NCBI GenBank assembly: GCA_000165345.1
Contig: CM000434.1
Location: forward strand, 1,024,001-1,088,000
DNA length: 64,000 nucleotides
Reading direction: 5' to 3'
Shown piece by piece: positions 18,208-58,223 of the stretch. The notes below the pieces were generated by a model. The model was not told the DNA's origin and ran no database searches. It saw only the letters and a list, made by a program, of their open reading frames with translations. The translations under genes and the position numbers were made by a program. Position 1 is the first letter of the stretch. Every line of letters starts with the position of its first letter.

Positions 18208-21200
18208 CTACCAATTAAGATCAAGCCTTTTGATTTGCTCCCCAATAGAATTCACATCCTTTCTAACTTTGGTTCTTCTATAAAATATAGGGCAATCTCT
18301 TGAAGTACAAATAATATCTTGGAAAGCACTTCCTTGGCACCTTTGGCACTGAGTCCAGAGTGAATTATATTCAATTTCTTTTTCTCTGAATTCATGAAGT
18401 TTATTAATAAGTACCGAACATTCCATATTTTCTTGTTTGGAACAATCTTTACAAAGTGGACCTTCCTTTATAATTGTTTTACAATTCATACACTGAAGAC
18501 CCTTCTTTACAAATCCTGCTAGAGCGCCTCCTGTAACACTCAAAACAGTTACAGATCTTGTATGGCTTCCTGAAAAGAGTTTTTCAGGATCCTTCATGAC
18601 TCCTTCAAAAACTCGAATTACTGAAGATTTTAGTGTATCTACATAATGTTGTGTATCAATTGCGAGATTATTTTCGAGTACATATAATGGATCTTCAGCG
18701 CGATCATATTGAGGCTGACCTTTAGCACCTTTAATTACTACATAAGAGACTCTGTCTCCAATATTTGGTGCAGATCCTGGGTCTCTTAATTTAAGCCTTT
18801 TTGCTAACTCAACATGAGCGAGTTTTGCAGTATAATCATCTTTTCCAAGACTCTTACTAACTACCAACAAAGACAAGTCTATTTTATTCTTTAGTAAGTC
18901 TGAAATTACATTTCTGGTATATTGTTTGGCTGCTTCAACATCTTTATCAACTAGAATCTTCTTTAAGACAGTATCAACCACTTTTTGTACAAGAAGACAG
19001 TTATCTCTTCTAACAGTCTCAATTCCCTTACAATCAATTCTCTCATGGAATTGTGGATTCTTAAAAAGTACTCCAGCATATCTTTTTTTATTCATCAATA
19101 AGAATGGACAATATACTTTTTCAAATTCTAATTTAATTGGTTTTACAAAGAGCTTACTTATTGAAGTTGCAGCTTCCAAACCAAGTTTCATTGCTTCTCC
19201 AATATCTGATACTCCAAACTGAATCATTACAGAATCTGTGTCACCATAAACAACTTTGGCATCAGCAGAATAACCATTTTCTTTTCTATATATCTTTTCA
19301 ACCTCATTTTTGGTAATATCAATCATTGCTCTACCATATGAAGTAATACTTGTTGAAAGTTCCAAGCATGGAAGTTGGCCTCCAGCCACTGCACCAGTAT
19401 ATCCATAAACACTATTTGCTGAAGTCTTTAAAGCAAGTTGTCTACCATTTAAAATAGAGATTAATGTTGGATCAGTTGCTTCCTCCATTTCTTTTTTGGC
19501 TTTCTTTCTTGCAGCTATAAGCTCTTCAACAATTAATGGAAGTATACCCTTTCTGACTGAAGATAATACAAAAGAATGACCAGTTGGAGAAGTCTTTCTT
19601 AAATCTTCTGGTACATTTTTAAGATTAAGTGGAGGAATTAGTGTAGAATAGCAAATATTGTGAGCAATCATAATTGAGGGATACAAAGAAGCAAAATCTA
19701 AAGTAGAAATTGGGTCCTTATAAAATCCTTTTAAAGGTTCTAATACAGTTGCTCCTTCATATTGGTTATCCCCATCAGATTGATTCTTTACTGTTGGCAT
19801 CAAGAAGTTGGTAGACTTACATTTCCTCAAGATTTGGCTTGTAACTTTAATTTGTTGGCCTCTACTTAGCAAAATATCTATTGTGGTACCCGTTACTCTT
19901 GCCATTTCTATAATATTTGGGAATAATTTCAAATGTTTCATAAGCCTTAATGGAAGTATTGAATCTTTGAGACAATATATTGCAATTCTCTTTCTTGTTT
20001 CAGGATTTCCATCTTGTAAGCCTCTAATCATTGAATAATGAACATCTTCTTTTTGTTCTTTTAGAAAGTTTGTGGAAACGTAGTTCAAAGAATAGCTTTT
20101 TAATTTGTGCTCTCTACGAATAGTCTCCAAAATATCCCATAGAATCCTTCCTTCAATATTAATCAATTTACTCTCATGAGTTCCAAATGCTCTGGATGAA
20201 AATCTGGTATCTTTACTTGTAATTTTTGTTTTAGCTAGCCTTGTAAAGAAGAAAAAATCATTCAATTGGAATAATTTAGCTCTTTCTAATAGGTAATTCA
20301 TATCAAAATTGATGCAATTATAACCTGTAATGACATCTGGATCTAATGCCAATAAAAAATCCTTCCATGCTAATAACATATCTTTTTCAGACTCAAACCA
20401 AAATACAAAAGCTTCAGCTACTGATGCACATTCTTTGAGAGTAAATATTACATTACAAATGGATTCAGGGCTATCTAGAAGTGTTACTACTGAAGATATT
20501 TGGATAACAGAATCTTTATGTGGCTCTGGAAATCCTACTCCAGACTCTGTAATGCATTCAATATCAAAAGAAAGTATTCTTATTGGTGGTAAAGTTGCCC
20601 ATTTCCCTGAGCTTCCAAGCACTATCAAATCGTCATAGAAAAGATCCATTTCTATTTGGCATGAACTAATTCTTTGAAATGGGCTTATCCTTACAAAACC
20701 TGCATCTTTAAAATCAAATTCTTGTCCTCCAAGTCTAATATACGATTTTTGCTTCGGTATCGATACCCATGATCCGGTACTTAAATCTCTATCAATTAAA
20801 TATCTTAGAATAAAAGGTATATTTGCTTCGTAAGCTTGAGGAATACAATCTAAATTCCCATTTTCTATCATAGATCTACAGGTGGGAACTAAGTTTGGTA
20901 GTTGTAGAGTGATTTTGTAGAACTGGGAATCTTCTATTTCTGAATCGCCTTTGTAATGCATTATTGATTCTTTTTTTAAAACTTGTACATTAAGGACATT
21001 TTTTCCTTCTGTTGCTCCTAATCCACTTTCAATTTGAGTTTTAATCTTTTCTGGATTAGGAGGTGTGCTTTTAGGTACTTCACAGTAGAGATAAGGAAAG
21101 AAACAGTGAATATTTATTAAAACTGTTATTCCGGTGCTGGTTGACCCAAATAGTTGTATTATTGGTGTTTCAATGTTGTCTTGGTTAGTCTTATTAGAAA

Positions 21201-21462
21201 ATACATTGTAAGAGCTTGAATTATACTTTTCATAAAACTCAGGTGATGGATTTTGGGAAGGAAATTTCCCAGTTGAAAACTTGGCATCCAATATGCAAAA
21301 GTCTAAATTATCATCTTTTGAAATATTCCCACATTGTGGATCAAGACTAACTTTGTTTCTTCTCCATCTATCCAGACAATTCTCAAAAAGCTTCCGAGAA
21401 GCTTCTGCATTCTCTTGGGTGAATCCTATGGTAGAAATTATTTCTTCCCCCTTTTCCATCAT
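18208..21462 (-). CDS. POLD1: DNA polymerase delta catalytic subunit (family B)
   Basis: Exo I ILSFDIEC, Exo II GYNCINFDMNYL, Exo III YCLKDSIL. Pol motif A DFASLYPSIMIAHN, motif B KTSANSVYGYTG, motif C YGDTDSVMI. C-terminal CysA/CysB metal-binding modules (CMNCKTIIKEGPLCKDC ... CQRCQGS...CTSRDCPIFY). Confidence 0.95.
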   Translation of the reverse strand: MMEKGEEIISTIGFTQENAEASRKLFENCLDRWRRNKVSLDPQCGNISKDDNLDFCILDAKFSTGKFPSQNPSPEFYEKYNSSSYNVFSNKTNQDNIETPIIQLFGSTSTGITVLINIHCFFPYLYCEVPKSTPPNPEKIKTQIESGLGATEGKNVLNVQVLKKESIMHYKGDSEIEDSQFYKITLQLPNLVPTCRSMIENGNLDCIPQAYEANIPFILRYLIDRDLSTGSWVSIPKQKSYIRLGGQEFDFKDAGFVRISPFQRISSCQIEMDLFYDDLIVLGSSGKWATLPPIRILSFDIECITESGVGFPEPHKDSVIQISSVVTLLDSPESICNVIFTLKECASVAEAFVFWFESEKDMLLAWKDFLLALDPDVITGYNCINFDMNYLLERAKLFQLNDFFFFTRLAKTKITSKDTRFSSRAFGTHESKLINIEGRILWDILETIRREHKLKSYSLNYVSTNFLKEQKEDVHYSMIRGLQDGNPETRKRIAIYCLKDSILPLRLMKHLKLFPNIIEMARVTGTTIDILLSRGQQIKVTSQILRKCKSTNFLMPTVKNQSDGDNQYEGATVLEPLKGFYKDPISTLDFASLYPSIMIAHNICYSTLIPPLNLKNVPEDLRKTSPTGHSFVLSSVRKGILPLIVEELIAARKKAKKEMEEATDPTLISILNGRQLALKTSANSVYGYTGAVAGGQLPCLELSTSITSYGRAMIDITKNEVEKIYRKENGYSADAKVVYGDTDSVMIQFGVSDIGEAMKLGLEAATSISKLFVKPIKLEFEKVYCPFLLMNKKRYAGVLFKNPQFHERIDCKGIETVRRDNCLLVQKVVDTVLKKILVDKDVEAAKQYTRNVISDLLKNKIDLSLLVVSKSLGKDDYTAKLAHVELAKRLKLRDPGSAPNIGDRVSYVVIKGAKGQPQYDRAEDPLYVLENNLAIDTQHYVDTLKSSVIRVFEGVMKDPEKLFSGSHTRSVTVLSVTGGALAGFVKKGLQCMNCKTIIKEGPLCKDCSKQENMECSVLINKLHEFREKEIEYNSLWTQCQRCQGSAFQDIICTSRDCPIFYRRTKVRKDVNSIGEQIKRLDLNW

Positions 21463-21695
21463 CTTTGTTTCTTAATACCCCCTGTTTTCTTTTTTTATTT
21501 TGACAAGAGAAAACTCCTTTAGTTTAAGGCAAGCAAAAGGCGCCACCTCCCCACACTATGTTAATTCTTATTGAAATGAATTATTTAAAATATAGTCAAT
21601 TTTATGTTTTTAGGTATTTTTGCATCAAGAAAAAAGGGACAAGAGTATTATTTCTTTTTTCCTTTAATATTGTGAGAAATAATATAACCCAATAA
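21463..21695. promoter_or_regulatory. 234-bp bidirectional promoter shared by DNA polymerase delta (minus) and the RecQ helicase (plus), with an E2F-like GGCGCC element
   Basis: Divergent ATGs at 21462 and 21696. The motif aaaaGGCGCCacc at 21539..21544 is an E2F-type (TTTSSCGC-like) site. Confidence 0.55.
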
Positions 21696-24668
21696 ATGGA
21701 AGATGAATCAGAATTTCAAGAAACTCATAAGAGTAGTTTAGAGTCGGAATTAAGATGGTATAAGGAGAATTTTGAACAAATAAAAAACGATTTACTCTCT
21801 AAATTGAATAAAGGCAGAAGTTCTAACTCAGAAATATCATGTGTGCTGCAAAATGAAACAAACAATATCGGTAAAATCTTTTTCGGAAAACCTATCAGAG
21901 ACTTTTCCTCGTTTTCCAATGTAATTCGAAATGTTTCAAAAAAAATTACCTTCAATAGTGATAGCCATGCATGCACACACCCGCATGCAAACACCGGTAT
22001 TGAAAATACATACGTGGCAGAGATTTCGGATAATCATGTGGACAACATAATTAGTAATCACAAAAAAGTTGAAGAGTTGTGTAAGGAAGAGAATGAAGAT
22101 GAAGTTATAGAATTGAAAGTATTGGGATGTGGAGGAAGGGAAGTAGAGGAGATTGTATCAAGCTCATCTTCTAGCAAGGAGAATTTATATACAATTTTGA
22201 ATATCCTGCCAAATTCTGACTTTTCAACGGTTAAAACAAAGTCCAGAAAGAATACAACAAAGAAAAGCTCTTCAAACGAGAAAAAGTTATTGAATTGCAG
22301 GAGAAAAGTTCAGGTCAATGAGAAGGACCAAGATTGGGAAAGGGAAGATTTTGAATGGTCAGAGGATATGAAAAGAATCAATGAGCAAGTTTTTGGCAAT
22401 GAATCATTTAGGTCAAATCAAAGACAGATAATGAATGCAGTGGTTTCTCAAAGGGACGTTTTTGTTATGATGCCAACAGGAGGAGGAAAGTCACTTTGTT
22501 TCCAGCTTCCTGGCCTTTTAAAATATAACAACCCTGCAAGTGTGACGGTGGTTATCATGCCCTTAGTTGCACTTATGGTTGACCAAATTGAACAGTTGAA
22601 TATACTCGGCATTAAATGTGCAAGTTTGAATAGTAATCAGTCTGCAGATGAGTTGAATCATATTACATCCTTACTGAAGAAGGGAGATCCTGAAACATGT
22701 CCTGCCTTTCTATTTGTAACTCCCGAAAAGCTTAAGCATTCAAAGACTTTGTTTTCACTACTAAAGCAAATTAATGATGAATCAAGATTATTAAGATTTG
22801 CAATTGATGAGGCTCATTGTGTTTGTCAATGGGGATTTGACTTTAGACCTGACTATATTCAACTTTGTAAACTCAGAGAAGAGTTCCCAAATGTCCCGAT
22901 AATAGCATTAACTGCCACTGCCACTCATAGTATTTTGAGTGATGTAATTAAACAACTAAAGATGCGATCTCCTGCTATCTTTAGTCTTTCTTTTGACAGA
23001 CCAAATCTAAAATATGAGGTAAGAGCTAAAAGTGGAAGTAAAAAAAAGATGCTCAATGAGATCTGTGAGCTGCTTAGATCTCCACGGTTTTGTAGATCAA
23101 CAAGTATTATCTACTGTTTGAGCAGAAATGAGTGCGAAGAAGTCTCCAAAGATTTGAACAAGGAAGGAATTTCTGCAACATATTACCATGGATCCATGAA
23201 AGAAGATAAGCGGAATCTGGCACAAAGAAGATGGATGAATGACGAAAAGCAGGTCATGGTAGCAACCATAGCATTTGGAATGGGAATCAATAAAAAAGAT
23301 GTTAGACTTGTGATTCATCTATCCATGCCAAAATCCCTTGAAAACTATTACCAAGAAAGTGGTAGAGCTGGAAGAGATGGACTAGAGTCTAAATGTATAT
23401 TATATTACTCTTACAAAGATGTCTCTAGATTACAAACTTTAGCAGGAGTTAACATTGAAAAACCTTCCAAAAAGTATTATACCTCCAAGAATAACTCTTC
23501 AAATAACAAATCCACAATTGATGGACTTTTAGGTATGGTGAAATATTGTGAAGAACAATATAAATGCAGAAGAACAATGATTCTAAGCCATTTTGGAGAG
23601 GATTTTAAAGGAAAATGTAAGGTTAAATGCGATAATTGTATGAGATCTGAATTAGAAAAGCCGACTAACATTAATGTGGAAGGTCTTGCTCGTCAAGTCT
23701 TTCACTCAGTAAGAATGAGCCTTCAAGAACAGGCAAGAGCTACAAAAACCTATGGATTTTTAACTTTATCTAGCTTAGCAGAAATCTTAAAAGGAAAGAA
23801 AAAGAAAGATAAGCAATCAAAAGGCTCCCTTAAAGACTGTATTGGTCTTCTTAATGATACAAATATTTGGAAGCCAGGAAATCTGCAAAGATTCCTGCAT
23901 TTGTTTATTATTAATCAGCTTTTTTCTGAGAATTTGGTTCAACTCAAAAATGGAGTATCAGTTGCTTCTCTTAAAATTGATAAACAAGCAGAAAAACAAG
24001 ATATCTATGAACTCGACTTTTCTTGTTTCAAAGCCTTACAGTTAGAGTCCATCTACTCTACTCCAATTCCAGAATCAAATAATGTTAATTTGGGCCATAA
24101 TATTAACTCATCTCTTTCCTTGTATTCTTTTAACTCAAAACAATCTTCTTCAGATATTAATTTTGCTAATAATGGCTTAATATCTAACTCTAACAACATA
24201 GAGAACTTGAATCACGATAAGAATCTCAAGGAATCCAGAAGAAAAAGACAATTCATTGATAAAGGATCTCCCCATTCAATAGTTAAGAAGAAGCAGGCAA
24301 ATTTGATGTATCAAGAATCTAACAGTGAAAATGAACAGCTTAAAGATTTTAGAAATCAATTACTTTTACTAAGAAGAAACTTAGCTGCAGAGTTTGGAAT
24401 CTCTAATACCAACTCTATTGCATCAAAGGAAGCTATTGATGCTCTTGTTGAGAATCTCCCGCTTTCATTAGATGCTCTTAAAACACTTCCTGGATGGGGC
24501 GCAAGGCAAAAACTTGAAAGATTTGGTCTCAGATTCATCTCAAAGGTCAGAGATTTTGTTGATTCCAAGTCAACCAATATGTTTTATACCGAAAAGAATT
24601 ATACTTGTCCAATTGACCTTATTAATCCTGAAGATCTGGACAAAGAACTAGATCTTATTTGGCAATAA
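21696..24668 (+). CDS. RecQ-family ATP-dependent DNA helicase (BLM/Sgs1-like: helicase core, RQC Zn region, HRDC)
   Basis: Motif 0/I FRSNQRQIMNAVVSQRDVFVMMPTGGGKSLCFQLP, DEAH box DEAHCVCQWGFDFRPDY, motif III ALTATAT, motif VI YYQESGRAGRDG. RQC zinc cluster CRRTMILSHF...CKVKCDNC. C-terminal HRDC-like helix bundle (LLLLRRNLAAEFGISNTNSIASKEAIDALVENLPLSLDALKTLPGWGARQ). Confidence 0.92.
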   Translation: MEDESEFQETHKSSLESELRWYKENFEQIKNDLLSKLNKGRSSNSEISCVLQNETNNIGKIFFGKPIRDFSSFSNVIRNVSKKITFNSDSHACTHPHANTGIENTYVAEISDNHVDNIISNHKKVEELCKEENEDEVIELKVLGCGGREVEEIVSSSSSSKENLYTILNILPNSDFSTVKTKSRKNTTKKSSSNEKKLLNCRRKVQVNEKDQDWEREDFEWSEDMKRINEQVFGNESFRSNQRQIMNAVVSQRDVFVMMPTGGGKSLCFQLPGLLKYNNPASVTVVIMPLVALMVDQIEQLNILGIKCASLNSNQSADELNHITSLLKKGDPETCPAFLFVTPEKLKHSKTLFSLLKQINDESRLLRFAIDEAHCVCQWGFDFRPDYIQLCKLREEFPNVPIIALTATATHSILSDVIKQLKMRSPAIFSLSFDRPNLKYEVRAKSGSKKKMLNEICELLRSPRFCRSTSIIYCLSRNECEEVSKDLNKEGISATYYHGSMKEDKRNLAQRRWMNDEKQVMVATIAFGMGINKKDVRLVIHLSMPKSLENYYQESGRAGRDGLESKCILYYSYKDVSRLQTLAGVNIEKPSKKYYTSKNNSSNNKSTIDGLLGMVKYCEEQYKCRRTMILSHFGEDFKGKCKVKCDNCMRSELEKPTNINVEGLARQVFHSVRMSLQEQARATKTYGFLTLSSLAEILKGKKKKDKQSKGSLKDCIGLLNDTNIWKPGNLQRFLHLFIINQLFSENLVQLKNGVSVASLKIDKQAEKQDIYELDFSCFKALQLESIYSTPIPESNNVNLGHNINSSLSLYSFNSKQSSSDINFANNGLISNSNNIENLNHDKNLKESRRKRQFIDKGSPHSIVKKKQANLMYQESNSENEQLKDFRNQLLLLRRNLAAEFGISNTNSIASKEAIDALVENLPLSLDALKTLPGWGARQKLERFGLRFISKVRDFVDSKSTNMFYTEKNYTCPIDLINPEDLDKELDLIWQ

Positions 24669-24947
24669 CTTATCATAGTTATCTCTAATTTGCTTAATTA
24701 AACTATTTTTCTTATAAGTCTCTTTAACCAGATAATCATAATATTTATTCTTTACTAGAATCCATTTAATGTTATTAATATGGCAATTTGGCGGGAATTT
24801 TATGCAATTCTTATTTGTTGTGCATGGCCTCGTTTGGCGCCCAGTCTGTGTATAAATGAGGTATAATGTTCAACTTGTATTTTAATAGAAGTTGTTGGTT
24901 CAAATTTGTAGATCCAAAGTTCGTTATGATCTTATTGCATTTCCAAG

Positions 24948-25952: not shown

Positions 25953-26012
25953 GTTTTTACTTTGTTCCTTCCTTTCACTCTAAATTAATCCTTGAATTTT
26001 AAAATTTATATG

Positions 26013-26090
26013 TATAAACAAAAATATATGAATATATATATTAACCCAATATATATATTCATATAAATATATATATTGGATTAATATGTA
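26013..26090. repeat. AT-dinucleotide palindromic block
   Basis: atatgaatatatatat-taaccc-aatatatatattcatat has 16-nt inverted arms. It is followed by aaatatatatattggattaatatg, which repeats the arm. The block lies in the divergent intergenic region 25953..26991. Confidence 0.6.
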
Positions 26091-26991
26091 AGTTTATTAA
26101 AAAACATTATTTTTTGAGAAAGCCAGAATGAATTCTAGAGCTTTTCAATTGAAGAAAGAAAGCGAAATGTATACAATTTGAATATTTTGACAAATTTTAA
26201 TCTTCATGTAAGTTTTAATTAATTTACCGGTACTTTTGCCTTGTCATTAATATGTGCACCCGAGTGTGCACACAGCATTGCCTCGATGTGATTTCAAAAG
26301 AATTATTAAAAATAATAATTGAGTGAAAATCTGGCAAATTTAAGACATGTCTACACAAATATTTTGAGTAATCTTTTCTTTTCCCGTCAAATGCTTAATT
26401 TCATATTCATCAACCATTTTCTTTCACCCAAATATGTAATCCTATGTGGGCAATATTAAATTAATTTAATAGAATTTTTCGTATTCAACAAGTAATGAAC
26501 TTTTTAAGACTAAATTAAGTTTTGATATTATTTCTATCGCAAATACCTAAATAAATATTTACTAGCTTACTCTACAATTCGACTTTAGTTGTTTTATCTC
26601 CTATCTTTTTCTCCACCCCAATTTTTTTTTTTATTTAATTGTTGACATTTACCGGTACATGCAATTTTGCTTGCATGAAATTCATGTGGATAATGCATGA
26701 ATTTAGAAAAAAAATATTCAATACCGGTGAAGGATTTAATGTGGATGCATGCAATAATGTTATTATGGGACTAAGTAGAGGAAATTTTCGTCAAATAATG
26801 AATGAGAAAAAAAATAAGTAGAAAGTGGAAAAGGAAAATAGGAATAATTATTGTTAATTTTGTATATTAGTGTAGAAAATAATATACATATATGTAAAAG
26901 AGAACAAAAAGAGTTAGGTTTTTTTTAAGAGTTTAACCATAGTTGTTGATTTTTATTAAAAAATTTGAATAAGATTATTAAAGAAGAGCCA

Positions 26992-36621: not shown

Positions 36622-37744
36622 TCTCTTGAATTTCTTGTGTTGATTTGCTGACGAAATAGCCGTTGCTACACCATTATCAGGTGCTCTTTGAGCTAAAGAT
36701 AAAAAAAGTTAAAAAGAAAATTGAGAATGATTAAAAGTAAAATTTTGATATATCAATAGGAGAATTAATAGAGAAATGACAATTGAACATTTATTTTTCA
36801 ATTATCAATATTTTTAATTCTTAAAGCAACATTTTCTTTGAATTGAGTTGATCGGTACCAGATAATTAATAGGCCGGTATGCAATAAAAAATTTTGTGCA
36901 TCATCACCATATTAGAGCGTGTAATAAATAATTTTTTCTTTTTTTTTCTCCCTCTATTTAGAAAAATTTTTTATGTATAAAAAATAATTACCAAATAGAT
37001 AGAATATTGATTGTATTTAAAATTAATAATTTAGATTAAATCAAAGTATTGATATTTCTCAATGTTTGAATTGATTCTGAATATACATTATAACAGTTAC
37101 ATAAATATTAAGATGATTGTATAGCACCGAGTAAATGATTTGAATTTTTCAACATAAGAATTTGTTTAATTGCTTTAAGAATAAAATATCTCTCTTTCTC
37201 TATTTTTTTTCTGATAACCTATTTTCATAATATATCAGAATTTTATAATAATACTTACTTTTATTAATAGCCATGGTTAAATATTATAGCCATATATGAA
37301 TTTCCTAAATGAATTCAATCAAACTTAACTTTAATAGCGATCAAAATTTTGAGAAATATATAGAAATCAATAATATCTCTATATAAATAAATATTTACTT
37401 TGAGTAATATACGATCAGGCAGAATAAGTTGAAAATTTAATGATTTTCTGGTCTTCTGCTTGCTATTTTTGCTAGTTGGCAAATGTCTTTTGAAATTATT
37501 AGATTGAGATATTGCAAGTGATATAATGTAAAAATATAAATATATACAATAATGTTATTTAGGATCTCGGCTTTTTCCTGAATAATCAGTATTAATATAT
37601 ATTTAAAAATTATGTAAATCTTCTCTTTTTGTTAGAGAGTTATTGGATTAATTGTTATTTTTTTTACTTGCTTGTACTGGGGTTGTTATTAGGATAATTT
37701 TCCTTGCCGTATAAAAATAGATTCTTAACCTCGTTAAAAAAGAT

Positions 37745-37840
37745 TCAATTATGCACGCACGCGGTAGCAAAGAAAAATATTCAGAATATAAAAACATGCA
37801 TGCCAGTATGCATGAAACAGGCGGGAAAATGGCAATGCAT
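37745..37840. promoter_or_regulatory. Promoter-like motif cluster 1 in the 2.5-kb gene-free interval
   Basis: atgcacgcacgcgg...aaacaTGCATGCcagtaTGCATGaaacaGGCGGGAAAAtggcaaTGCATGCAatttg. This is a dense GCATGCA plus GGCGGGAAA combination with no annotated gene start within 1 kb. Confidence 0.45.
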
Positions 37841-38462
37841 GCAATTTGTTAATTTACCAGATGGCGCATTTTGGGCAAAATTTGGATACTAAGTATAGGA
37901 ATATGGTCAGTAAACCATTTAAATAATAAAGTATGACGGCTTGTAAATTGTTCAAGGTAGATAATTGTTTACAAGCTATTTTCGACAGTTTGTAGGAGAA
38001 TCGATTTTCTTTTCAAATAATCTGGTATTTCCAAAGTTGGGAGTTAAGACAGTTGAAAATAAATTCTTTTTTTTTTTTTTTGGAAAAGAATTTTATGATA
38101 ATTAATTCAATATTTTACCCTTTTTATATTCTTAAATCTTATTCCTTTGTTTTCTGTTGAACCAAGAAGGGTTAAATTACAATGTTATTTTTTTTTCTCC
38201 CCCCTCCTCTCCTTTACTATAGACTAAATCGACTTTTTATATTTAAGCTGATTTTTAGTGCTAATTAGAAGAAAAAAATATAAATAACGAGCGAAGAAAA
38301 GTGAGGAAATACGTATGTTGTATGAATTTCCAATAAAATTCTTTATATTAATAAAGTAATAATTCAATTAAAAAGAGAAGAAAAAATAATGTTTTCCTTA
38401 GAATTAACTTTCCACATTAAAATATTTATATAAAAAAACATTACGTGTAAATTGATTTATCC

Positions 38463-38556
38463 TATACCGGTATGCAAGTATTTTATGTGGACGCATGTAA
38501 GGACATGCACAAGAAGAAGACCGGTTGCATGTGGATGCACCAGTAAGTCGAATATA
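38463..38556. promoter_or_regulatory. Promoter-like motif cluster 2 in the 2.5-kb gene-free interval
   Basis: taCCGGTATGCAagtattttatgtggacGCATGtaaggaCATGCAcaagaagaagaCCGGTTGCATGtggaTGCAccag. Confidence 0.45.
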
Positions 38557-39118
38557 ACTAGCAAGTACACTAGAAAAAGAAAAGGACTGGAATAAGATGG
38601 GCGAATTAAAAATATAAAAGGTAATTTATCTTCCCTAACTAAAATATGGTCAGCAGAAGTATGGTGAGAATCCACGAGTAACAACTAAACAAGCAAGAGT
38701 TAAATTGGATTGGTATAAAGAAATGACAAATTCCAGGGCATGATACATATAGTATCTGATGATTTGTAAGGAAAAAAATTTTTTCTCCTGTTCCTATTTG
38801 AATTTGTGACCAGATCTAATGTTACTCTTAAAATAACCCAGACGACTTATTTAGCTATTCTGCGCTGAGTAATGAAAAATGTCAATAACGGTAAATTATG
38901 GTAATTAGTATAATAATAAATCTTTATCATTCAGCTCCCACTACTTTCAAATCAGCCCCGAAAGTTACTTAGAATAAAGACCTGGATAAGCCAGCCTCGG
39001 ACTCGAGACTGAACTCAGTTAGCTTGGCTTAATTCAGCTCGATTCAATTCAGCCATTTCTCGTTTCAGTTTAATTTTTGTTCTCGTTTTTATTAAATGCA
39101 AATTACGGCAGAGTTAAA

Positions 39119-48495: not shown

Positions 48496-48930
48496 CTGCA
48501 GTAACTCTATTGTATCTAAGAAAACTGGCCTAGGGGTCTTTTTGACTAAAGGCCTCTTTTTTACCCCCCCCAATTTACATTTACTTCTAAAAGGATCAAA
48601 TCCCAATCTTAAAACCCAAATATAATTCAAATCCAAAAAGTATACAAAACTAGAGCATAACCAATTTGCAATCTCACAATAGCAATCATCAAAAAATGAT
48701 GAGAAAAATAAAAATTGGGATCCCCCCATTTGGTTGGGAAAATGATATTATGAATTTCCAGTATGGCGGGAACATTTTTGGGAAAAAAAAATCCAAATGC
48801 CAAATTTATTTGTTATCAAACTAAGGAGAAACAGAGAGGCGATTTTTGTAGGGTTTTGAGATTAATATAGACCAAAAATAGAGGAAAACTCGCCCGATCT
48901 GACTTTTTAATTGATGTATGCTTGTAAGGA

Positions 48931-50880: not shown

Positions 50881-50952
50881 CTGTTACTTTTTAGGCTTCA
50901 TTTTCACTTAGATGAAGTTAATTCGTTCTTTTCTGTTATTTGACTGTGGGGT

Positions 50953-51026
50953 TGGCGCCTTTGCATGTATTATTTCACGATAATAATTTGTCGCGCCCCC
51001 GAGATTGCATGCATGCATGCATGCGG
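50953..51026. promoter_or_regulatory. Upstream motif cluster for gene 51167: TTGGCGCC, GTCGCGCCC and a (GCAT)4-5 / GCATGCA repeat
   Basis: gttGGCGCCtttGCATGtatt...tGTCGCGCCCccgagatTGCATGCATGCATGCATGCggtg, 140-210 bp upstream of the ATG. Confidence 0.5.
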
Positions 51027-51166: not shown

Positions 51167-53279
51167 ATGTCTCAGAGTTCAACACTTTGGAACCAATCCT
51201 ACTCTAGGGAGTTAATAATGGATCATTCGGAAGGGATTGATTGGATTAGTGGCGATGGTTGCCTGGAGAATATTAAAGATTCACATTTTGTGGATTATAG
51301 TGATCCAAATCAAGTTAATATGGAAGATCCTTTAGGAAATAACTTTTATGATTGTACTGATCTTGATGATAGCTTCCATAATTACTTGATGAAGGGTTTA
51401 CTGGGTGAGAATGTTGAAGGTGGCTCAGGCTCTAATAATTTGAATGATGTTTCCTCCGTGAACAGCATCAGAGGTCAAAGTAATGTTGGCGTTACTATTA
51501 GTCACAACAATGATGCCATTTGCCACAACATTGACCACAGAATTGATAGCGTTGGTATTGGAGTGGGATCTCTTGGGGGGGAAGTTGGAGGAGCTTTAGG
51601 GGTGGGTTTAGGAGGAGTGGGAGGAGGAATAGAGATAGGTTTGGGAGTACAAGTAGGAGAGGTGAGAAATCAAGGGGAGAAGGAGTTTGAGAACATAAGC
51701 TGCAGTTACACGGGGAACTCACATTCCCATCAATTGGAGCCACCAAATGAAGATCTCGTAGAAGATCAGAGTAACTGTTACAGGATATCAGCAACTTCAA
51801 ACAATTTGGGTATTTCCAGTAATCATGGACTGTTATTGGGGGCATCTTCCTCTAGCAAAGTCTTGGGAGCTACGCCATCAGCTCAAATATCATCTTCTTT
51901 GTCATCCTCTTCATCATCATCCTCTTCTTCGTTAGCTTCATCTTCATCGTCATCATCTTCATCACCATCATTAACATTGAATTCAGGGCTTCCACCAATA
52001 TCACTACCACCACGAGCTATACCTCCTATAAACTTATCTCAGAGTTTGATGACTCCCACTACATCTGCATCCTCATCATCAGTTAGCCCAATTTCCTTTT
52101 CTCCAAATTCAATGCAATCAGGCCAAAAGCTGATGGGATTTGATCATTCATTCCCAATGGAAAATACACAAAAGAGAGTTCGAATAGAGCCGGAAGAAAG
52201 GATTAGAATGGGTATTTTCGACGATAGTTTAGTGGAATCTGATGTCAAGTTTGCAGATCACCAGATTGTTGAGTTGGATTCAAGTAAAGGAAGAAGGTGG
52301 AGTAACAATTCAACAACTTCAACAATTTCTTCAAACTTTTCAATAAATACAAGTGATGGCGGATGTGTTAGCCATATTAATGATAGCGTAAACAATGAGA
52401 ATCTTGGATTAATGAGCCATGATTTTCAGCAAGACAAGTTTTGTAATACAGAAGATTTAGGATCCCAGAAGCCGAAAATGGCGGACCAAAGCTATGAAAT
52501 GGGAGTAATTGAAGACGAGAACTATTCAATGGGAGGCCAAATGGAGGGGGAATTTTTTATGAACTCGGATAACTACTTAACTGAAGAGGAAAAGCTCAAG
52601 TTAAGGAGGCGAGGAAGGAGGAGAAGACCAGGTAAGTTAAATATTTCTAAACAATTAACAAAGGATCTGACTCTTTATTGTTTTAAATAGGCGAAATAGA
52701 AGCTTGGAAGACTATAATACCTAGAACTACTGTGGATGAAGCTGAGCACTTTGTACAGACAAGTCAATATAGAATGAGACATGTATATAGAGATCCAAGA
52801 GCTGTGAGCTTCGTTTATAGGTAAGTTAAAGATTATGAAAATCATTCAGTATAAGGAGTTTTTTTCTCATTTGGAATCAATTATTTATAGATGTGTACAA
52901 CATGTGGATTGCCAGTATGAGATGAGGATTTACTTAATATCTCACGAAACTTGTTACGTTCAACACAGAGGTTACCATACAGAGGAGAAACAAAAGTACA
53001 AGAGGCCAGGTAAGTTAATTGTTGAAGAGAGGATTTTTCTTAAATCCTTTCTTTTTTTAATTTAGTGTGGATTTGAGTAATTATCTTTTAGGACTCCCTC
53101 AACACACTTTACCGCTCATTGATGAGCTAATAAGAAAAGGCCTTCCTCCAAAGTCAGTAATTGACCATGCAATTCAAATATATCCAGAGGTAGCCGACCA
53201 ATCAAATATTTCAGTACTTTATAGGCAGATTACGAATAGACAACAATATATTAGAAAACGCCAGAGAAATTATGTTTGA
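51167..53279 (+). CDS. Four-exon gene: S/G-rich low-complexity protein whose C-terminus (Arg-rich RRRGRRRRPG stretch plus Cys/His-patterned region) is encoded by three short exons. Exons are 51167..52631, 52691..52820, 52891..53009 and 53092..53279.
   Basis: Track ORF 51167..52690 (507 aa) runs into GGTAAGTT at 52631. Three consecutive GTAAGT donors (52632, 52821, 53010) are matched by TAG or AG acceptors (52690, 52890, 53091). Each junction restores the frame (phases 1, 2, 1). The joined segments are open to a TGA at 53277..53279, consistent with track fragments 52835..53065 and 53067..53279. Joined C-terminus: ...RRRGRRRRPG|EIEAWKTIIPRTTVDEAEHFVQTSQYRMRHVYRDPRAVSFVYR|RCVQHVDCQYEMRIYLISHETCYVQHRGYHTEEKQKYKRP|GLPQHTLPLIDELIRKGLPPKSV...RKRQRNYV. 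Confidence 0.7.
51889..51970 (+). repeat. Coding (TCN)n serine microsatellite (SSSLSSSSSSSSSSLASSSSSSSSSPS)
   Basis: tcatcttctttgtcatcctcttcatcatcatcctcttcttcgttagcttcatcttcatcgtcatcatcttcatcaccatca. Confidence 0.7.
52632..52690 (+). other. Intron 1 (59 nt, GTAAGT...TAG) of gene 51167..53279
   Basis: ccaG|GTAAGTTAAAT...TTTTAAATAG|GCGAA. Joining gives a GGC (Gly) codon and an open frame. Confidence 0.65.
52821..52890 (+). other. Intron 2 (70 nt, GTAAGT...TAG)
   Basis: tttatAG|GTAAGTTAAAG...TTATTTATAG|ATGTG. The alternative acceptor at 52849 gives an immediate stop; this one keeps the frame open. Confidence 0.6.
53010..53091 (+). other. Intron 3 (82 nt, GTAAGT...TAG)
   Basis: aggccaG|GTAAGTTAATT...TCTTTTAG|GACTCC. 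The nearer acceptor at 53065 leads to a TGA after three codons; the 53091 acceptor joins in phase to the final 62-codon exon. Confidence 0.55.
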
Positions 53280-53759
53280 TGGAATTTAATAAAATTTCTG
53301 GCAAAACTTTTTTTAATACCGGTAGAAAGATTGCATGCAGAAAGTTTGCATGCAATAAATTTGAATTATTATCCACATAGAATATAATCACTTTTAGTTT
53401 AGAATAAGCTAAGTATTTTGTAATTTCAAAATAGATCTGACTCTTTGATATTATTGATGATGAAGTTAAAGAGATAAGGGGAATAGTAATGAAAATGGGT
53501 AAATCTGAAAAAAATAAGAAAAGAAAAAGAATAAATAATGAAATTTTCAATAAAATAAATTAGATTTATTTTTCCATCTTAAAGAATTTTTTTTTTGTTT
53601 CTGCAGATAGTTAACAGGAAATTAGTCATGCAGTTGTTTTGGCGCGCAAATTCCTCACAAATAATTTAGTGGAAGGGTAATAAAGATAATAATAAATAAA
53701 AAGTGGAAATAAAAATAAAGGTGGTAGGAAAGGGAGAGAAGAGATTTAAGTAAATTTAC

Positions 53760-53876
53760 ATGGGAATTTTTGGTTTAAAGACGTATGGGTCTGTTTTGGG
53801 TCCAAGAGGAGTGACCCTCAAGGGTTTGGTGGTTTACCTATTAGTAGCATTGGCATTAATGGGAGAGCGAGTCAGG
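53760..53876 (+). CDS. Putative exon 1 of the 54025..56745 gene (39 codons; signal-peptide-like)
   Basis: ATG at 53760 in a relatively GC-richer patch: MGIFGLKTYGSVLGPRGVTLKGLVVYLLVALALMGERVR. It ends exactly on a codon boundary at GTAAGTTG (53877). The acceptor ...AATTAG at 54024 joins in phase 0 to SENIHVFSFEDDEHE... A TTGGCGCGC motif lies 120 bp upstream (53644). Confidence 0.4.
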
Positions 53877-54024
53877 GTAAGTTGAGTTTTTACCATTCAC
53901 ATTTGTTTCCCTCTTCCATTAATAGAGGTTGGGAAAGGTCTGGTGTGAAATTGGAGTAATAATTATTCTTGATTAACTTTTATTTCATAACTTTTTCTTA
54001 ATTAACTATCTAATGAATAATTAG
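53877..54024 (+). other. Putative intron (148 nt, GTAAGT...TAG) between the signal-peptide exon and the main ORF
   Basis: Donor gtcagG|GTAAGTTGAG. The nearer acceptor at 53925 leaves only 16 codons before TAA. The acceptor at 54023/54024 gives a long open frame. Confidence 0.4.
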
Positions 54025-56745
54025 TCAGAGAATATTCACGTTTTTTCCTTCGAGGATGATGAGCATGAGGCTGGAAACCAATACGTCTTTGATAACTTGA
54101 CAAACTCAAATTCAGAACATGAGTTGAACTCCCCCTTTGGAATAGTTCCTTCAAATGAACATCATACCGGCATTGATGCGCATGTGGACAATTCTGATGA
54201 ACACATTTTACAGAAATCCGAGCATAGGAGTTTGTCTGGTCTGGGTGAGGTCGGTAGTTCTAAAAAAGTTTTTGGAGAAGGGGCTACTAGAAGGGAGGTT
54301 GGAGATGAAGTGGAAAGCATCTATAGTGAAGAAGACGGGGGAATATATATGGATACGGAGCAGGATGAGGAAATTGGGGATATAGAGAGTTTTTTAAGCT
54401 TTGATAGTGAATTTGAGAAAAATGAGATGGAAGAGGGGATTATTGGCAATGCTGCTGATAAAGTGAACAAAGTAGCAGTTGGTTTAGATACTGCTCGGGA
54501 AGGTCAGACCGAAGACAAGCAAGAGATAGTACGTAGTACGGAAGAAGTGAGTAAAGGAAAGGCTGATATAAAAGTTAAAAAGAGGACAGGAGAGGAAACC
54601 AAAAAGGAAACTGAGGCAAAAGGAGATGCAGAAGTTGGGATTGAGGGGAAGGAGCACCACCACGTGGCTCGGGAAGCTGTTCAGCAAAAAGGTGAGGCTA
54701 AAGTAATGGGTGAGAAGAAGTCTCAGGAGAAATCCAAAGCGTCTGGGGTTAGTTCTTTGGGGAGATCGAAAAGAAAAAGTGAAGGAGAAAGTGAAGATGG
54801 CGAGGCAACAACAAATAGTAATAGTAGTGAAGAGAAGAAAAAGCCAGAAAGCGGAGTTATTGAGGACTCAGATACCTTATCTGACAAAGTTAAGATAAAG
54901 ACGGAAAATGTTCATATGAAGAAGCATATTAAAACAATTCAAACTCCTGGACAGGAACCTAAGGAGGGGAACCAAACCCAAAATACTCCATATGTTTCAG
55001 TTAGTGCAAATGACTCAGCTAATGCTAATAATTCGGTTAGTGCTAATATTAACGGTTCTATTTCTTCAGTAGTTCCAATTATGAAAGCTGAGGCAGATTT
55101 TTATACAAAAAATACCAATGAAACTTTAAATATAGGAGTTGAAAGTTCTGGGAAGGTTGCTGACGTTCCTAGCGAAGCAACAGCCTTAGGAGAGGGATAC
55201 GTAGGTTCTGGAAAGAATATCACAACAGAAGCAACGAGACAGGGGCCAAGCACTAATATCAAGCAAAAGTCACTAAAGAAAGCAGCGTCTTCAAGCAGAG
55301 ATAAAAGCAAAAGAAAATCAAGCAGGACGGATGATTCTGCTCTAAAAAAGGTTTCTAGAGAATCAAATAAAGGGGAGGGCCTGGAATCTCCTAAATCTGC
55401 TCGTCTAGGATCTAGTAGAGGAGATAATCCCAAGACGACTAAACATAAAAAGCATAAACAATACAAAGATTTGAAATTTAATTCAAAAGAAATAGAAGAT
55501 TCTGAAGCACGTTTCAAAGACAGGTACCGATGTTTGAATGTAAATACAAATATTTTTGAGTCCCTAAGAGTTTTAGATCCTTCTTCTAACCAGACTTGCC
55601 TAACAAATTCAGAGTTTGATGGTTTGAATGTCACGAGAGGTCTCACAGAAGATGATAAAGAACAGAGAAAGGAGTCTAAGCAGAGATTGGGGCCTTTAAA
55701 GAAGATGGAAACAGAAAAGAAAAATTGCTCTTTTTATTCTATTTGGCAGGAATTTACCGATCAAGTGAATAATATGTGTACTCAATTAGAACATAAAGTC
55801 GATTCCAGTTCAAAAAAACCATTAATTGCGGATCTACAGACATCCATTGCCAACATAACCAGTAACTTAAACAATACTGCTACTACTTCTACTACAACGG
55901 TAGCGTTTAATATTACAGAAATTACGACTGAAAATATATCTGGGATAAGAGAAAAGAAAGAAATCAACTCCTCTTCAACTGAAGAGAAGCCAAAAATATT
56001 GAATCTTGCTGGTACTGAAAGAATGGTGGAAGTTCCACAAAATTATTCTAATCCAATAAAGTCAGATGGTGCAAAAAGTGAGAGGAGTAAGATGAATTCC
56101 AAAAGTAAAGTAAGCTGGACAAGAATTCTTCAGAAGATTAGAATATTGAATATTCCTGATATTTATATTCAAGCTACTGCTAAAAAGATACTCAAGTTCA
56201 ATATATATATTTACAGGATATATACGGATAAATACAAGAGAAAAATAATTAAAAGAGTACAGGGAATTCTGAGAAATTTAAAAATAGTAAATAAGTCTCA
56301 AATGATCAAAGATAGGCACTTTTTGGGAGCTTACACGATCTTTGGATCACTATTAACTGCATTATTACTCCTATCTATTGCAACATTTCACGGAAGACAA
56401 TATGCTGAGAAATCTGAAGATATACTGGTTGAGGCAGAAACTATTAAAAAGCTTGGATTTGTGGGAGGTAAAATTAAGATGATAAGCAGCCATCTATCAA
56501 ATTCAGATACAGGAATTGAAAGAGTGGTATTCTCTGATGATCCAAGCTCTATCTGTCAAATGATCTTGAAAAGTAAATCAATTGTAGCCCAGAATCCCAG
56601 TAATATTGATTATACTGAAGAGATAACCGATTCTAAAGACTTAAATTCTATTTTGAACTTAACTACTAGATTGGAAGAGAATAATGAGATTTTACTCCAT
56701 CTCTCAAATGGATTAGCTAAATGTGCTCAGTCTCTTACAATATAA
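54025..56745 (+). CDS. Acidic, K/E/S/T-rich low-complexity protein with a single TM helix near the C-terminus; 5' end uncertain
   Basis: The track ORF begins at a TTG (54097). The frame is open from 54025, the first codon after an in-frame TAG that also forms the acceptor AG. The first in-frame ATG is only at 54349 (MDTEQDEE). The open 108-codon stretch upstream of that ATG in an AT-rich genome argues that it is coding and is fed by the upstream exon. C-terminal hydrophobic helix LGAYTIFGSLLTALLLLSIATF, then a roughly 120-aa tail. Confidence 0.6.
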   Translation, partial: SENIHVFSFEDDEHEAGNQYVFDNLTNSNSEHELNSPFGIVPSNEHHTGIDAHVDNSDEHILQKSEHRSLSGLGEVGSSKKVFGEGATRREVGDEVESIYSEEDGGIYMDTEQDEEIGDIESFLSFDSEFEKNEMEEGIIGNAADKVNKVAVGLDTAREGQTEDKQEIVRSTEEVSKGKADIKVKKRTGEETKKETEAKGDAEVGIEGKEHHHVAREAVQQKGEAKVMGEKKSQEKSKASGVSSLGRSKRKSEGESEDGEATTNSNSSEEKKKPESGVIEDSDTLSDKVKIKTENVHMKKHIKTIQTPGQEPKEGNQTQNTPYVSVSANDSANANNSVSANINGSISSVVPIMKAEADFYTKNTNETLNIGVESSGKVADVPSEATALGEGYVGSGKNITTEATRQGPSTNIKQKSLKKAASSSRDKSKRKSSRTDDSALKKVSRESNKGEGLESPKSARLGSSRGDNPKTTKHKKHKQYKDLKFNSKEIEDSEARFKDRYRCLNVNTNIFESLRVLDPSSNQTCLTNSEFDGLNVTRGLTEDDKEQRKESKQRLGPLKKMETEKKNCSFYSIWQEFTDQVNNMCTQLEHKVDSSSKKPLIADLQTSIANITSNLNNTATTSTTTVAFNITEITTENISGIREKKEINSSSTEEKPKILNLAGTERMVEVPQNYSNPIKSDGAKSERSKMNSKSKVSWTRILQKIRILNIPDIYIQATAKKILKFNIYIYRIYTDKYKRKIIKRVQGILRNLKIVNKSQMIKDRHFLGAYTIFGSLLTALLLLSIATFHGRQYAEKSEDILVEAETIKKLGFVGGKIKMISSHLSNSDTGIERVVFSDDPSSICQMILKSKSIVAQNPSNIDYTEEITDSKDLNSILNLTTRLEENNEILLHLSNGLAKCAQSLTI

Positions 56746-57932: not shown

Positions 57933-58191
57933 CAGAGTGAGTATTGGCTAACTATTTATTATTTACCTGCTATACTAATATTATTAATTTCATAAGCTTT
58001 GTAACTCGCTAGTTTTGTTTGTGCTCTTCCACCTGAACTTTATGCGGAGAATTTGTAGTCCGGAATATTAAATTCAGAATATTCCAAAATTATCCTGCAT
58101 TAGAACCGCTTCCTTTAGTTTCTTTTTCTTTTCTTCTCTATTGCGACTTTTTTTGATCCTCACATTCAGCATGTAACCCCACCCTACAGCT

Positions 58192-58223
58192 GTGGCGCCA
58201 CACGCTGTTTTGTCTTTGGCGCC
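58192..58223. promoter_or_regulatory. Perfect 10-bp palindrome GTGGCGCCAC plus a second TTGGCGCC in the divergent DHHC/USP5 intergenic region
   Basis: GTGGCGCCACacgctgttttgtcttTGGCGCCtat. A second cluster at 58733..58755 (attGCATGCGCCGGTGtac) lies nearer the USP5 ATG. Confidence 0.5.

What the first reader, a model, noticed from the sequence alone, without database searches (positions are those of the whole stretch)
21463..21695. Head-to-head DNA polymerase delta and RecQ helicase sharing a 234-bp promoter with an E2F-type site
Two replication/repair genes diverge from a very short interval containing aaaaGGCGCCacc at 21539..21544. E2F/DP factors control S-phase genes, and GGCGCC-type palindromes are the candidate E2F sites in this lineage. 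One element could co-regulate both genes. This would be a compact replication regulon unit.
Basis: partly seen in the sequence, partly recalled or inferred. Interest (0 to 1): 0.5.

Follow-up and report, generated by a model that had tools for sequence, protein, structure and literature searches.

The report
Conserved E2F/G-box site, PolD–RecQ promoter
The short spacer between the Cryptosporidium parvum DNA polymerase delta and RecQ/BLM helicase genes holds a GGCGCC (E2F-type) site fused to a G-box that is kept across the genus, but this motif class and this very upstream region are already published, and the motif marks most promoters here, not a replication-specific switch.

Summary
The window is C. 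parvum chromosome 6. Pol delta catalytic subunit (cgd6_4410, 18208-21462, minus strand) and a BLM-type RecQ helicase (cgd6_4420, 21696-24668, plus strand) diverge from a 233-bp spacer. GGCGCC sits at 21539-21544.

The site is not chance:
- GGCGCC occurs 8 times in the window against 0.8 expected, and all 8 are non-coding.
- It is the only contiguous invariant block in a five-species alignment of the spacer.

Four bases downstream lies CCCCACAC, the reverse complement of the published G-box GTGTGGGG (an ApiAP2 site). CCCCAC is kept in all 8 other Cryptosporidium species examined. GGCGCC is kept in 6, replaced by the E2F variant CCCGCC in C. andersoni, and degenerate in C. serpentis.

The "replication regulon" reading is weak:
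- E2F-type hexamers lie in 11 of 14 promoter-containing spacers of this window, next to myosin, proteasome, Tim10, DHHC and other genes.
- The two genes fall in different published expression clusters. Their correlation (Spearman 0.86) is matched by 9-26% of neighbouring gene pairs, depending on the measure.

The E2F motif in C. parvum promoters, its link to replication genes, and this exact 234-bp upstream region were published in 2003-2013.

Verdict: real and conserved, but ordinary and already known.

The parts
18208..21462 (-). DNA polymerase delta catalytic subunit gene (cgd6_4410), 1084 aa
   Evidence: Pfam DNA_pol_B, DNA_pol_B_exo1 and zf-C4pol. Best PDB match is human POLD1 6s1m_A at 943 bits, against Pol zeta at 312. 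Gene id and annotation come from Oberstaller 2013 Table S2.
21696..24668 (+). BLM-type RecQ helicase gene (cgd6_4420), 990 aa
   Evidence: Pfam DEAD, Helicase_C, RecQ_Zn_bind and HRDC. Best PDB match is BLM 4cgz_A at 384 bits, with RECQ1 at 348. Non-Cryptosporidium homologues are BLM/RecQ4A types. Annotated 'RecQ bloom helicase'.
21463..21695 (.). 233-bp divergent spacer between the two start codons; inferred bidirectional promoter
   Evidence: The same head-to-head pair is present in 8 other Cryptosporidium species, with spacers of 188-682 bp. No Rfam family matches and the RNA fold is unremarkable, z = -1.86.
21539..21544 (.). E2F-type palindrome GGCGCC; with the following A it forms GGCGCCA, the only contiguous invariant block of the spacer alignment
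   Evidence: invariant columns G77-A83. Kept in 6 of 8 other species, CCCGCC in C. andersoni, CCCGCT in C. serpentis. It lies 76 bp from the PolD ATG and 151 bp from the RecQ ATG.
21549..21556 (-). G-box: GTGTGGGG read on the minus strand (CCCCACAC on the plus strand), 4 bp from the E2F-type site
   Evidence: CCCCAC is the only 6-mer of the spacer found in all 8 other species, and CCCCACAC is found in 6. It matches published motif 2 DTGTGGGG / G[T/C]GGGG, which C. parvum ApiAP2 domains bind on protein-binding arrays (PMC3734150, PMC4117751).
21528..21535 (.). Flank GGCAAGCA, semi-conserved only in the four closest species (GGCA-N2-CA)
   Evidence: Visible in the local views. Function is inferred only.
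21594..21623 (.). Second, weaker conserved block (aGTCAATTTTatGTTTTTagGtATTTTTgc), 70-100 bp upstream of the RecQ ATG; possible RecQ-proximal or CAAT-like element
   Evidence: Alignment A1 columns about 170-210. Seen only in intestinal-clade species. Function is inferred only.

Best explanation
The interval is an ordinary Cryptosporidium bidirectional promoter. Its functional core is an 18-bp composite cis-element, GGCGCC-N4-CCCCACAC (21539-21556).

Inferred mechanism: an E2F/DP dimer binds the GGCGCC palindrome, and an ApiAP2 G-box binder (such as cgd8_810) binds the adjacent GTGGGG on the opposite strand. Together they keep the spacer nucleosome-free and promote transcription outward into Pol delta (76 bp away) and RecQ (151 bp away).

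The E2F-type site acts here as a general promoter and open-chromatin element, used by most genes of this genome. It is not an S-phase-specific switch. Expression timing is probably set by the partner motif(s) and other layers of control. That would explain why the two genes share a late-rising trend but not the same profile.

Shown: the sequence anatomy, the non-coding enrichment, the genus-wide conservation of element and arrangement, and the loose co-expression. Inferred: which proteins bind, and that transcription starts in both directions from this one element.
For: Anatomy and gene identities.

Enrichment:
- GGCGCC occurs 8 times against 0.82 expected, all non-coding.
- E2F-type hexamers: 20 non-coding against 0.86 expected, and 4 coding against 7.5 expected. 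Density is 1.32 per kb non-coding against 0.08 per kb coding, binomial P = 1e-9.

Footprint:
- The spacer alignment has 55% mean column identity, yet GGCGCCA is the only contiguous invariant run.
- The only non-low-complexity k-mers shared with most species are CCCCAC (8 of 8) and GGCGCC (6 of 8).
- The composite survives a three-fold expansion of the spacer in C. ryanae and C. xiaoi, where the gene starts were verified.
- Other E2F-type sites of the same loci are not kept beyond the nearest relative, so this one is under unusual constraint.

Generality: 11 of 14 promoter-containing spacers and 1 of 8 convergent spacers carry an E2F-type hexamer, next to unrelated genes.

Literature:
- E2F motifs dominate ATAC-seq peaks, more than half of which are bidirectional promoters (10.1101/2025.01.17.633476).
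- A G-rich motif was found upstream of all replication genes tested, including this 234-bp region (PMC1779779).
Against: - No binding, transcription-start or per-locus chromatin data could be read here.
- E2F/DP binding to this motif has never been validated in Cryptosporidium (PMC12246861).
- The C. parvum flanks (AAAA-GGCGCC-ACCT) are not the canonical TTT...AAA. The match to published motif 3, DTTGSCGCCH, is 9 of 10 on the minus strand (read by eye).
- C. serpentis has only CCCGCT, so the E2F half can degenerate while the arrangement persists.
- The composite lies closer to PolD and has the same orientation relative to PolD as the one other tight composite (50946) has to its downstream gene. 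It may therefore serve PolD mainly.
Confidence: 0.65

Rival explanations
1. One reading: a dedicated cell-cycle (S-phase) E2F switch. One E2F/DP site co-regulates Pol delta and RecQ as a compact replication regulon unit.
For: - Both genes act in DNA replication or repair.
- The site and the gene pairing are conserved genus-wide.
- Both transcripts are near zero at 2-6 h and rise later, Spearman 0.86.
- E2F-like motifs were reported as over-represented at DNA-replication genes (PMC3734150 citing PMC1779779).
Against: - The motif sits upstream of most genes in the window regardless of function, and upstream of 161 of 200 published clusters.
- The two genes are in different published clusters.
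- 9-26% of random neighbouring gene pairs correlate as well. RecQ tracks cgd6_4440 (r = 0.98) far better than it tracks PolD.
- The pairing lies inside a fully syntenic block and is absent in Neospora and Eimeria. Its conservation may simply reflect general synteny within the genus.
Confidence: 0.15
2. The composite is essentially the Pol delta promoter element. RecQ is driven by its own proximal sequences (the conserved block at 21594-23), and the two genes merely share a spacer.
For: - The composite is 51-93 bp from the PolD ATG in 7 species but 131-204 bp from the RecQ ATG.
- The orientation GTGGGG-N-GGCGCC followed by the gene is the same for PolD as for the composite at 50946 upstream of ORF 51167.
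- A second conserved block lies nearer RecQ.
- The expression profiles differ.
Against: - There are only two oriented examples, so the orientation argument is weak.
- In C. ryanae and C. xiaoi the element is roughly central, 295-297 bp from PolD and 376-381 bp from RecQ.
- More than half of ATAC peaks in C. parvum are annotated as bidirectional promoters with one E2F motif.
Confidence: 0.15
3. GGCGCC is recognised by a factor other than E2F/DP, or acts only as part of a longer site for the G-box-binding ApiAP2. The 'E2F' label would then be a resemblance only.
For: - No experimental E2F binding data exist for Cryptosporidium.
- The G-box half is more conserved than the E2F half: 8 of 8 species against 6 of 8 exact.
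- The flanks in C. parvum are non-canonical.
Against: [quoted passage not shown]
- Cryptosporidium, alone among apicomplexans, retains E2F and DP genes (PMC3734150, PMC12246861).
- C. andersoni replaces GGCGCC with CCCGCC, which is the other classical E2F core. That is the substitution expected for an E2F site.
- No tested AP2 domain was reported to bind this motif.
Confidence: 0.05

Closest known systems
C. parvum 'E2F-like' upstream motifs 3 and 4 (DTTGSCGCCH and TTTGGCGGGAAV; consensus TGGCGCCA) of Oberstaller et al. 2013, first noted on chromosome 6 by Bankier et al. 2003
   Same: Same [C/G]GCGC[G/C] core. Non-coding location within a few hundred bp of a start codon. Strong non-coding enrichment in this window. 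9 of 10 match to motif 3 on the minus strand. C. andersoni carries the motif 4 core at the orthologous place.
   Different: Nothing essential. The C. parvum flanks are less canonical than TTGGCGCCAA. The cross-species footprint over 9 species is an addition I did not find in the papers read.
Apicomplexan G-box (G[T/C]GGGG; motif 2 DTGTGGGG), bound by ApiAP2 domains such as cgd8_810; the 'G-rich motif' upstream of all C. parvum replication genes in Mullapudi et al. 2007
   Same: Exact GTGTGGGG on the minus strand at 21549-21556. It lies upstream of a replication gene whose 234-bp upstream region was in the 2007 data set.
   Different: Here it is fused to an E2F-type site at a fixed 4-bp spacing (3 bp in C. 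felis, 8 bp in the gastric clade), and the pair is kept across the genus. The papers read describe motif co-occurrence per cluster, not this fixed composite.
Metazoan and plant E2F-regulated bidirectional promoters of replication genes (general knowledge, not tested here)
   Same: A short divergent spacer with an E2F core between two DNA-metabolism genes.
   Different: [quoted passage not shown] The motif is near-ubiquitous in promoters, not restricted to G1/S genes. The expression data do not show tight co-regulation.

Membership tests
E2F/DP binding site (C. parvum E2F-like motif) | Symmetric core [C/G]GCGC[G/C] | tested here: met
   GGCGCC at 21539-21544.
E2F/DP binding site (C. parvum E2F-like motif) | T-rich 5' flank and A-rich 3' flank (TTTGGCGCCAAA; motif 3 DTTGSCGCCH) | tested here: inconclusive
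   C. parvum reads AAAA-GGCGCC-ACCT, a 9 of 10 match to motif 3 on the minus strand (by eye). Orthologues read GGCGCCAA[AT] in 4 of 6 species, which is a canonical half-site.
E2F/DP binding site (C. parvum E2F-like motif) | Over-represented in, and largely confined to, non-coding upstream sequence | tested here: met
   8 of 8 GGCGCC and 20 of 24 E2F-type hexamers lie in the 23.7% of the window that is non-coding. 11 of 14 promoter-containing spacers carry one, against 1 of 8 convergent spacers.
E2F/DP binding site (C. parvum E2F-like motif) | Purifying selection on the site (phylogenetic footprint) | tested here: met
   GGCGCCA is the only invariant run in a 5-species alignment. It is kept in 6 of 8 species, with an E2F-variant core in C. 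andersoni and a degenerate core in C. serpentis.
E2F/DP binding site (C. parvum E2F-like motif) | E2F and DP proteins encoded by the organism | not tested
   Taken from the literature: two E2F genes (one on chromosome 1, one on chromosome 6) and two DP genes are annotated in C. parvum (PMC3734150, PMC12246861, 10.1101/2025.01.17.633476). They lie outside this window.
E2F/DP binding site (C. parvum E2F-like motif) | Physical occupancy by E2F/DP | not testable with these tools
   The 2025 review states that most regulatory components lack functional validation.
E2F/DP binding site (C. parvum E2F-like motif) | Target genes show cell-cycle (S-phase) co-expression | tested here: inconclusive
   In the bulk qRT-PCR series both genes rise late (Spearman 0.86), but 9-26% of neighbouring gene pairs do as well, and the genes sit in different clusters. 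Asynchronous cultures cannot resolve S phase.
G-box (ApiAP2 site G[T/C]GGGG) | Core G[T/C]GGGG, extended DTGTGGGG | tested here: met
   The minus strand at 21549-21556 reads GTGTGGGG. 7 of 8 TGTGGGG/CCCCACA copies in the window are non-coding.
G-box (ApiAP2 site G[T/C]GGGG) | Conservation at the orthologous position | tested here: met
   CCCCAC is present next to the E2F-type core in all 8 other species.
G-box (ApiAP2 site G[T/C]GGGG) | Bound by an ApiAP2 domain | not testable with these tools
   Protein-binding array data for cgd8_810 and other domains exist in the literature for the motif class, not for this site.
Bidirectional promoter | Two divergently oriented genes with start sites less than 1 kb apart | tested here: met
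   233 bp between the ATGs. The spacer is 188-682 bp in 8 other species.
Bidirectional promoter | One accessible region with transcription starts in both directions | not testable with these tools
   Genome-wide ATAC-seq results are published, but no per-locus data are held.
Bidirectional promoter | Correlated expression of the gene pair beyond background | tested here: not met
   Log-Pearson 0.68 and Spearman 0.86, which 26% and 9% of 231 control pairs reach or exceed. Different clusters.

The most novel reading that the evidence does not exclude
The tightly spaced, oriented composite GTGGGG-N2-8-(GGCGCC/CCCGCC) could be a distinct bipartite module, rather than two independent motifs that happen to be adjacent. 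In it, the ancestral eukaryotic E2F/DP would cooperate with a lineage-specific ApiAP2 G-box binder. The module might mark the DNA-replication programme across the genus.

It is rare: 3 in the 64-kb window at a gap of 12 bp or less, only 2 of them at 4 bp or less. It is usually unique in each 13-kb orthologous locus. The G-rich motif was reported upstream of all replication genes tested in 2007. This reading cannot be tested here because only this window of the genome is available.
Probability: 0.15. Interest if true: 0.45.

Novelty: already known. Interest (0 to 1): 0.2.

Why it matters
Cryptosporidium is the only apicomplexan genus that kept E2F/DP factors, and how they are used is still untested. 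This locus adds no new kind of element.

It does offer a compact, well-footprinted test case. It is a 233-bp bidirectional promoter with a single 18-bp E2F + G-box composite, kept across the intestinal clade, with a variant in the gastric clade. That makes it convenient for EMSA, CUT&RUN or CRISPR promoter dissection of E2F and ApiAP2 cooperation.

It does not by itself reveal a replication regulon.

Tried and rejected
- Chance occurrence: rejected by shuffles, by composition-matched hexamers and by the footprint.
- Structured RNA or a small gene in the spacer: rejected. The only Rfam match was a sub-threshold lncRNA model lying inside PolD coding sequence. The fold z-score is -1.86, with 11 of 200 shuffles folding as well. 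The only repeats are A/T-run matches.
- Mis-called gene starts as the cause of the 680-bp spacers in C. ryanae and C. xiaoi: rejected. tblastn with the C. parvum N-termini lands at the annotated starts.
- Deep conservation of the gene pairing beyond the genus: not found. The Neospora and Eimeria stiedai RecQ orthologues have other divergent neighbours.
- Better expression and chromatin data could not be obtained. The single-cell atlas paper (Walzer 2024) is not held. The ATAC and long-read preprint has no supplements held. Oberstaller 2013 Tables S3 and S4 (motif occurrences per cluster) appear to lie beyond the stored part of the truncated supplement, judging and from cluster 112 falling at part 18 of about 24.
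- The 507-aa ORF downstream of the second composite, checked as a possible replication protein: no Pfam or PDB match.
- A genome-wide test of the composite against replication genes was impossible, because only this window and the 13-15-kb orthologous loci are available.

Full report
**What is there.** The window is Cryptosporidium parvum chromosome 6. The 990-aa ORF at 21696-24668 is found letter for letter on BX526834.1 and CP029785.1.

On the minus strand, 18208-21462 encodes a 1084-aa family-B polymerase with exonuclease and C4 zinc-finger domains. Its best solved relative is human POLD1 at 943 bits, against Pol zeta at 312 and Pol alpha at 163.

On the plus strand, 21696-24668 encodes a helicase with DEAD, Helicase_C, RecQ_Zn_bind and HRDC domains. 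Its best solved relative is BLM at 384 bits.

Published identifiers are cgd6_4410 ("DNA polymerase delta catalytic subunit") and cgd6_4420 ("RecQ bloom helicase").

The start codons are 233 bp apart (21463-21695). GGCGCC is at 21539-21544 in the context aaaaGGCGCCacctccccacac.

**Is the motif more than chance?** Yes.
- GGCGCC occurs 8 times in the window against 0.82 expected from dinucleotide shuffles, and no shuffle reached 8.
- All 8 copies lie outside ORFs.
- Taking the published E2F-type cores ([CG]GCGC[CG], GGCGGG/CCCGCC), 20 of 24 copies lie in the 23.7% of the window that is non-coding. That is 1.32 per kb against 0.08 per kb, with mononucleotide expectations of 0.86 and 7.5.
- Among all twenty 3G/3C hexamers, GGCGCC is the outlier, at 8 non-coding copies against 2 or fewer for the rest.

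**Conservation.** I fetched the orthologous loci from eight other Cryptosporidium lineages:
- chipmunk genotype I
- an unnamed species from a sequencing run (74% protein identity)
- C. canis
- C. felis
- C. ryanae
- C. xiaoi
- C. andersoni
- C. serpentis

All keep the order ProRS(+), PolD(-), RecQ(+), unknown(-).

In an alignment of the five closest spacers, mean column identity is 55%. The only contiguous invariant run is GGCGCCA.

A k-mer survey shows that the only non-low-complexity words of the C. parvum spacer shared with most species are CCCCAC (8 of 8), CCCCACAC (6 of 8) and GGCGCC (6 of 8).

The conserved unit is therefore a composite: GGCGCC, 4 bp (3 in C. felis), then CCCCACAC. In the gastric clade, C. 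andersoni has CCCGCC, 8 bp, then CCCCAC, and CCCGCC is the other classical E2F core. C. serpentis has CCCGCT in the same place.

In C. ryanae and C. xiaoi the spacer has tripled to about 680 bp. The gene starts there were checked by tblastn. The composite persists in the middle of it.

As a control, other E2F-type sites in the same loci are not kept beyond the nearest relative. These include the two in the RecQ 3' convergent spacer and the one upstream of Tim10. In C. xiaoi and C. andersoni, the PolD/RecQ site is the only E2F-type hexamer in the whole 13-kb locus.

**What the second half is.** CCCCACAC is the reverse complement of GTGTGGGG. This is the published G-box (motif 2 DTGTGGGG; G[T/C]GGGG), which C. 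parvum ApiAP2 domains such as cgd8_810 bind on protein-binding arrays (PMC3734150, PMC4117751).

Mullapudi et al. 2007 used this very upstream region ("DNA pol delta, 234, cgd6_4410") in their DNA-replication set. They reported a G-rich motif upstream of all genes in that set. They could not do the C. hominis comparison for this gene (PMC1779779).

**Does the site define a replication regulon?** The evidence is against that reading.
- In this window, 11 of 14 spacers that must contain a promoter carry an E2F-type hexamer, against 1 of 8 convergent spacers.
- The neighbouring genes are a myosin, a proteasome ATPase, an RRM protein, Tim10, an ankyrin/PHAX protein, a Myb-domain protein, a DHHC palmitoyltransferase, a ubiquitin hydrolase and several unknowns.
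- Another short divergent spacer, 48730-48930 (201 bp), has the same one-site architecture between unrelated genes.
- This agrees with the literature. E2F-like motifs are over-represented upstream of 161 of 200 expression clusters. They dominate ATAC-seq peaks, more than half of which are bidirectional promoters.

Expression was read from the Mauzy 2012 qRT-PCR series (four replicates, seven time points). As a percentage of maximum at 2, 6, 12, 24, 36, 48 and 72 h:

| Gene | 2 h | 6 h | 12 h | 24 h | 36 h | 48 h | 72 h |
|---|---|---|---|---|---|---|---|
| Pol delta (cgd6_4410) | 0 | 20 | 11 | 52 | 89 | 63 | 100 |
| RecQ (cgd6_4420) | 0 | 0 | 4 | 5 | 19 | 38 | 100 |

Spearman correlation is 0.86 and log-Pearson is 0.68. 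Among 231 pairs drawn from 22 neighbouring chromosome 6 genes, 9% and 26% respectively do at least as well. RecQ tracks cgd6_4440 (r = 0.98) far better than it tracks PolD.

Oberstaller 2013 placed the two genes in different clusters, 45 and 112.

These are bulk, asynchronous cultures, so S-phase co-expression is not excluded. It is not supported either.

The gene pairing is not ancient. The RecQ orthologues of Neospora and Eimeria stiedai have other divergent neighbours. Within Cryptosporidium the pair sits in a fully syntenic block, so its retention needs no special explanation.

**Most likely mechanism (inferred).** The 18-bp composite is the core of a shared, nucleosome-free bidirectional promoter. 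E2F/DP would bind the palindrome and an ApiAP2 G-box binder would bind the adjacent GTGGGG.

The E2F half would act as a general promoter element. Timing would come from the partner motif and other layers of control.

A weaker conserved block at 21594-21623, nearer RecQ, may be a RecQ-proximal element.

One rival is that the composite mainly serves PolD. It is closer to PolD in seven species. Its GTGGGG-then-GGCGCC-then-gene orientation matches the only other tight composite in the window, at 50946-50959 upstream of ORF 51167.

Nothing suggests a structured RNA or a hidden gene in the spacer.

**Comparison with what is known, and novelty.** The motif class was noted on chromosome 6 by Bankier 2003, according to Oberstaller 2013, which defined the motifs. 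Its association with replication genes and this specific upstream region were published by Mullapudi 2007. The prevalence of E2F motifs in bidirectional open-chromatin peaks was reported in 2025.

What I add is small. First, a nine-species footprint shows that the E2F-type core and a G-box form a fixed composite, with the G-box half the more conserved. Second, the published expression data do not support tight co-regulation.

E2F binding in Cryptosporidium remains unvalidated. The locus would be a convenient test case, but it is not a discovery.

**Verdict.** Novelty: already known. Interest: 0.2.

Noticed in passing
window 24669-24947: The convergent spacer between the 3' ends of RecQ and the 334-aa ORF carries two E2F-type hexamers, GGCGGG at 24790 and GGCGCC at 24836. 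It is the only one of 8 convergent spacers in the window to have any. Only GGCGGG is kept in chipmunk genotype I. C. felis has GGCGCC plus TGCATGCA in its own convergent spacer, and the other species have none. This could be a promoter for an antisense or long non-coding transcript.
   Followed up: partly
window 50946-51024: A second tight G-box + E2F composite, GTGGGGttGGCGCC (50946-50959), is followed by CGCGCC (50992) and a run TGCATGCATGCATGCATGC (51006-51024, ApiAP2 TGCATGCA-type). It lies 150-220 bp upstream of an unknown 507-aa ORF (51167-52690) that has no Pfam or PDB match.
   Followed up: partly
window 25953-26991: This 1-kb divergent spacer has no E2F-type hexamer, but several of its blocks recur in the chipmunk genotype I spacer, and the first and TGCATGCA also in C. 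canis: GCACCCGAGTGTGCACACAGC (26256-26276), an AT-rich palindrome (26041-26084), and ACCGGTACATGCAATTTTGCTTGCATGAAATTCATGTGG (26651-26689) near TGCATGCA (26746). It looks like an AP2-type promoter. One flanking gene is probably cgd6_4440, which peaks sharply at 48-72 h, though the gene-id assignment was not verified.
   Followed up: partly
window 48730-48930: A 201-bp divergent spacer with a single E2F-type site (GGCGGGAA at 48765) lies between an unknown 1035-aa gene (-) and a Myb-domain gene (+). It has the same architecture as the finding, with unrelated genes.
   Followed up: no
window 36622-39118 and 52691-54348: Two long stretches (2.5 kb and 1.7 kb) have no ORF of 100 aa or more. Each has one E2F-type hexamer (37820, 53641), and TGCATGCA sites lie nearby. 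They may hold intron-containing or small genes, or non-coding transcripts.
   Followed up: no
window 58177-58223: Two GGCGCC copies lie 24 bp apart (58194, 58218), preceded by CCCCAC (58177), in the 941-bp divergent spacer between a DHHC palmitoyltransferase (-) and a ubiquitin hydrolase (+).
   Followed up: no
L012 (Neospora caninum FR823385.1) and L013 (Eimeria stiedai): The RecQ/BLM orthologues of these coccidians are not paired with Pol delta. Their divergent neighbours are a 3871-aa protein and a CTP_transf_1 protein. The head-to-head pairing is therefore specific to Cryptosporidium among the lineages checked.
   Followed up: yes
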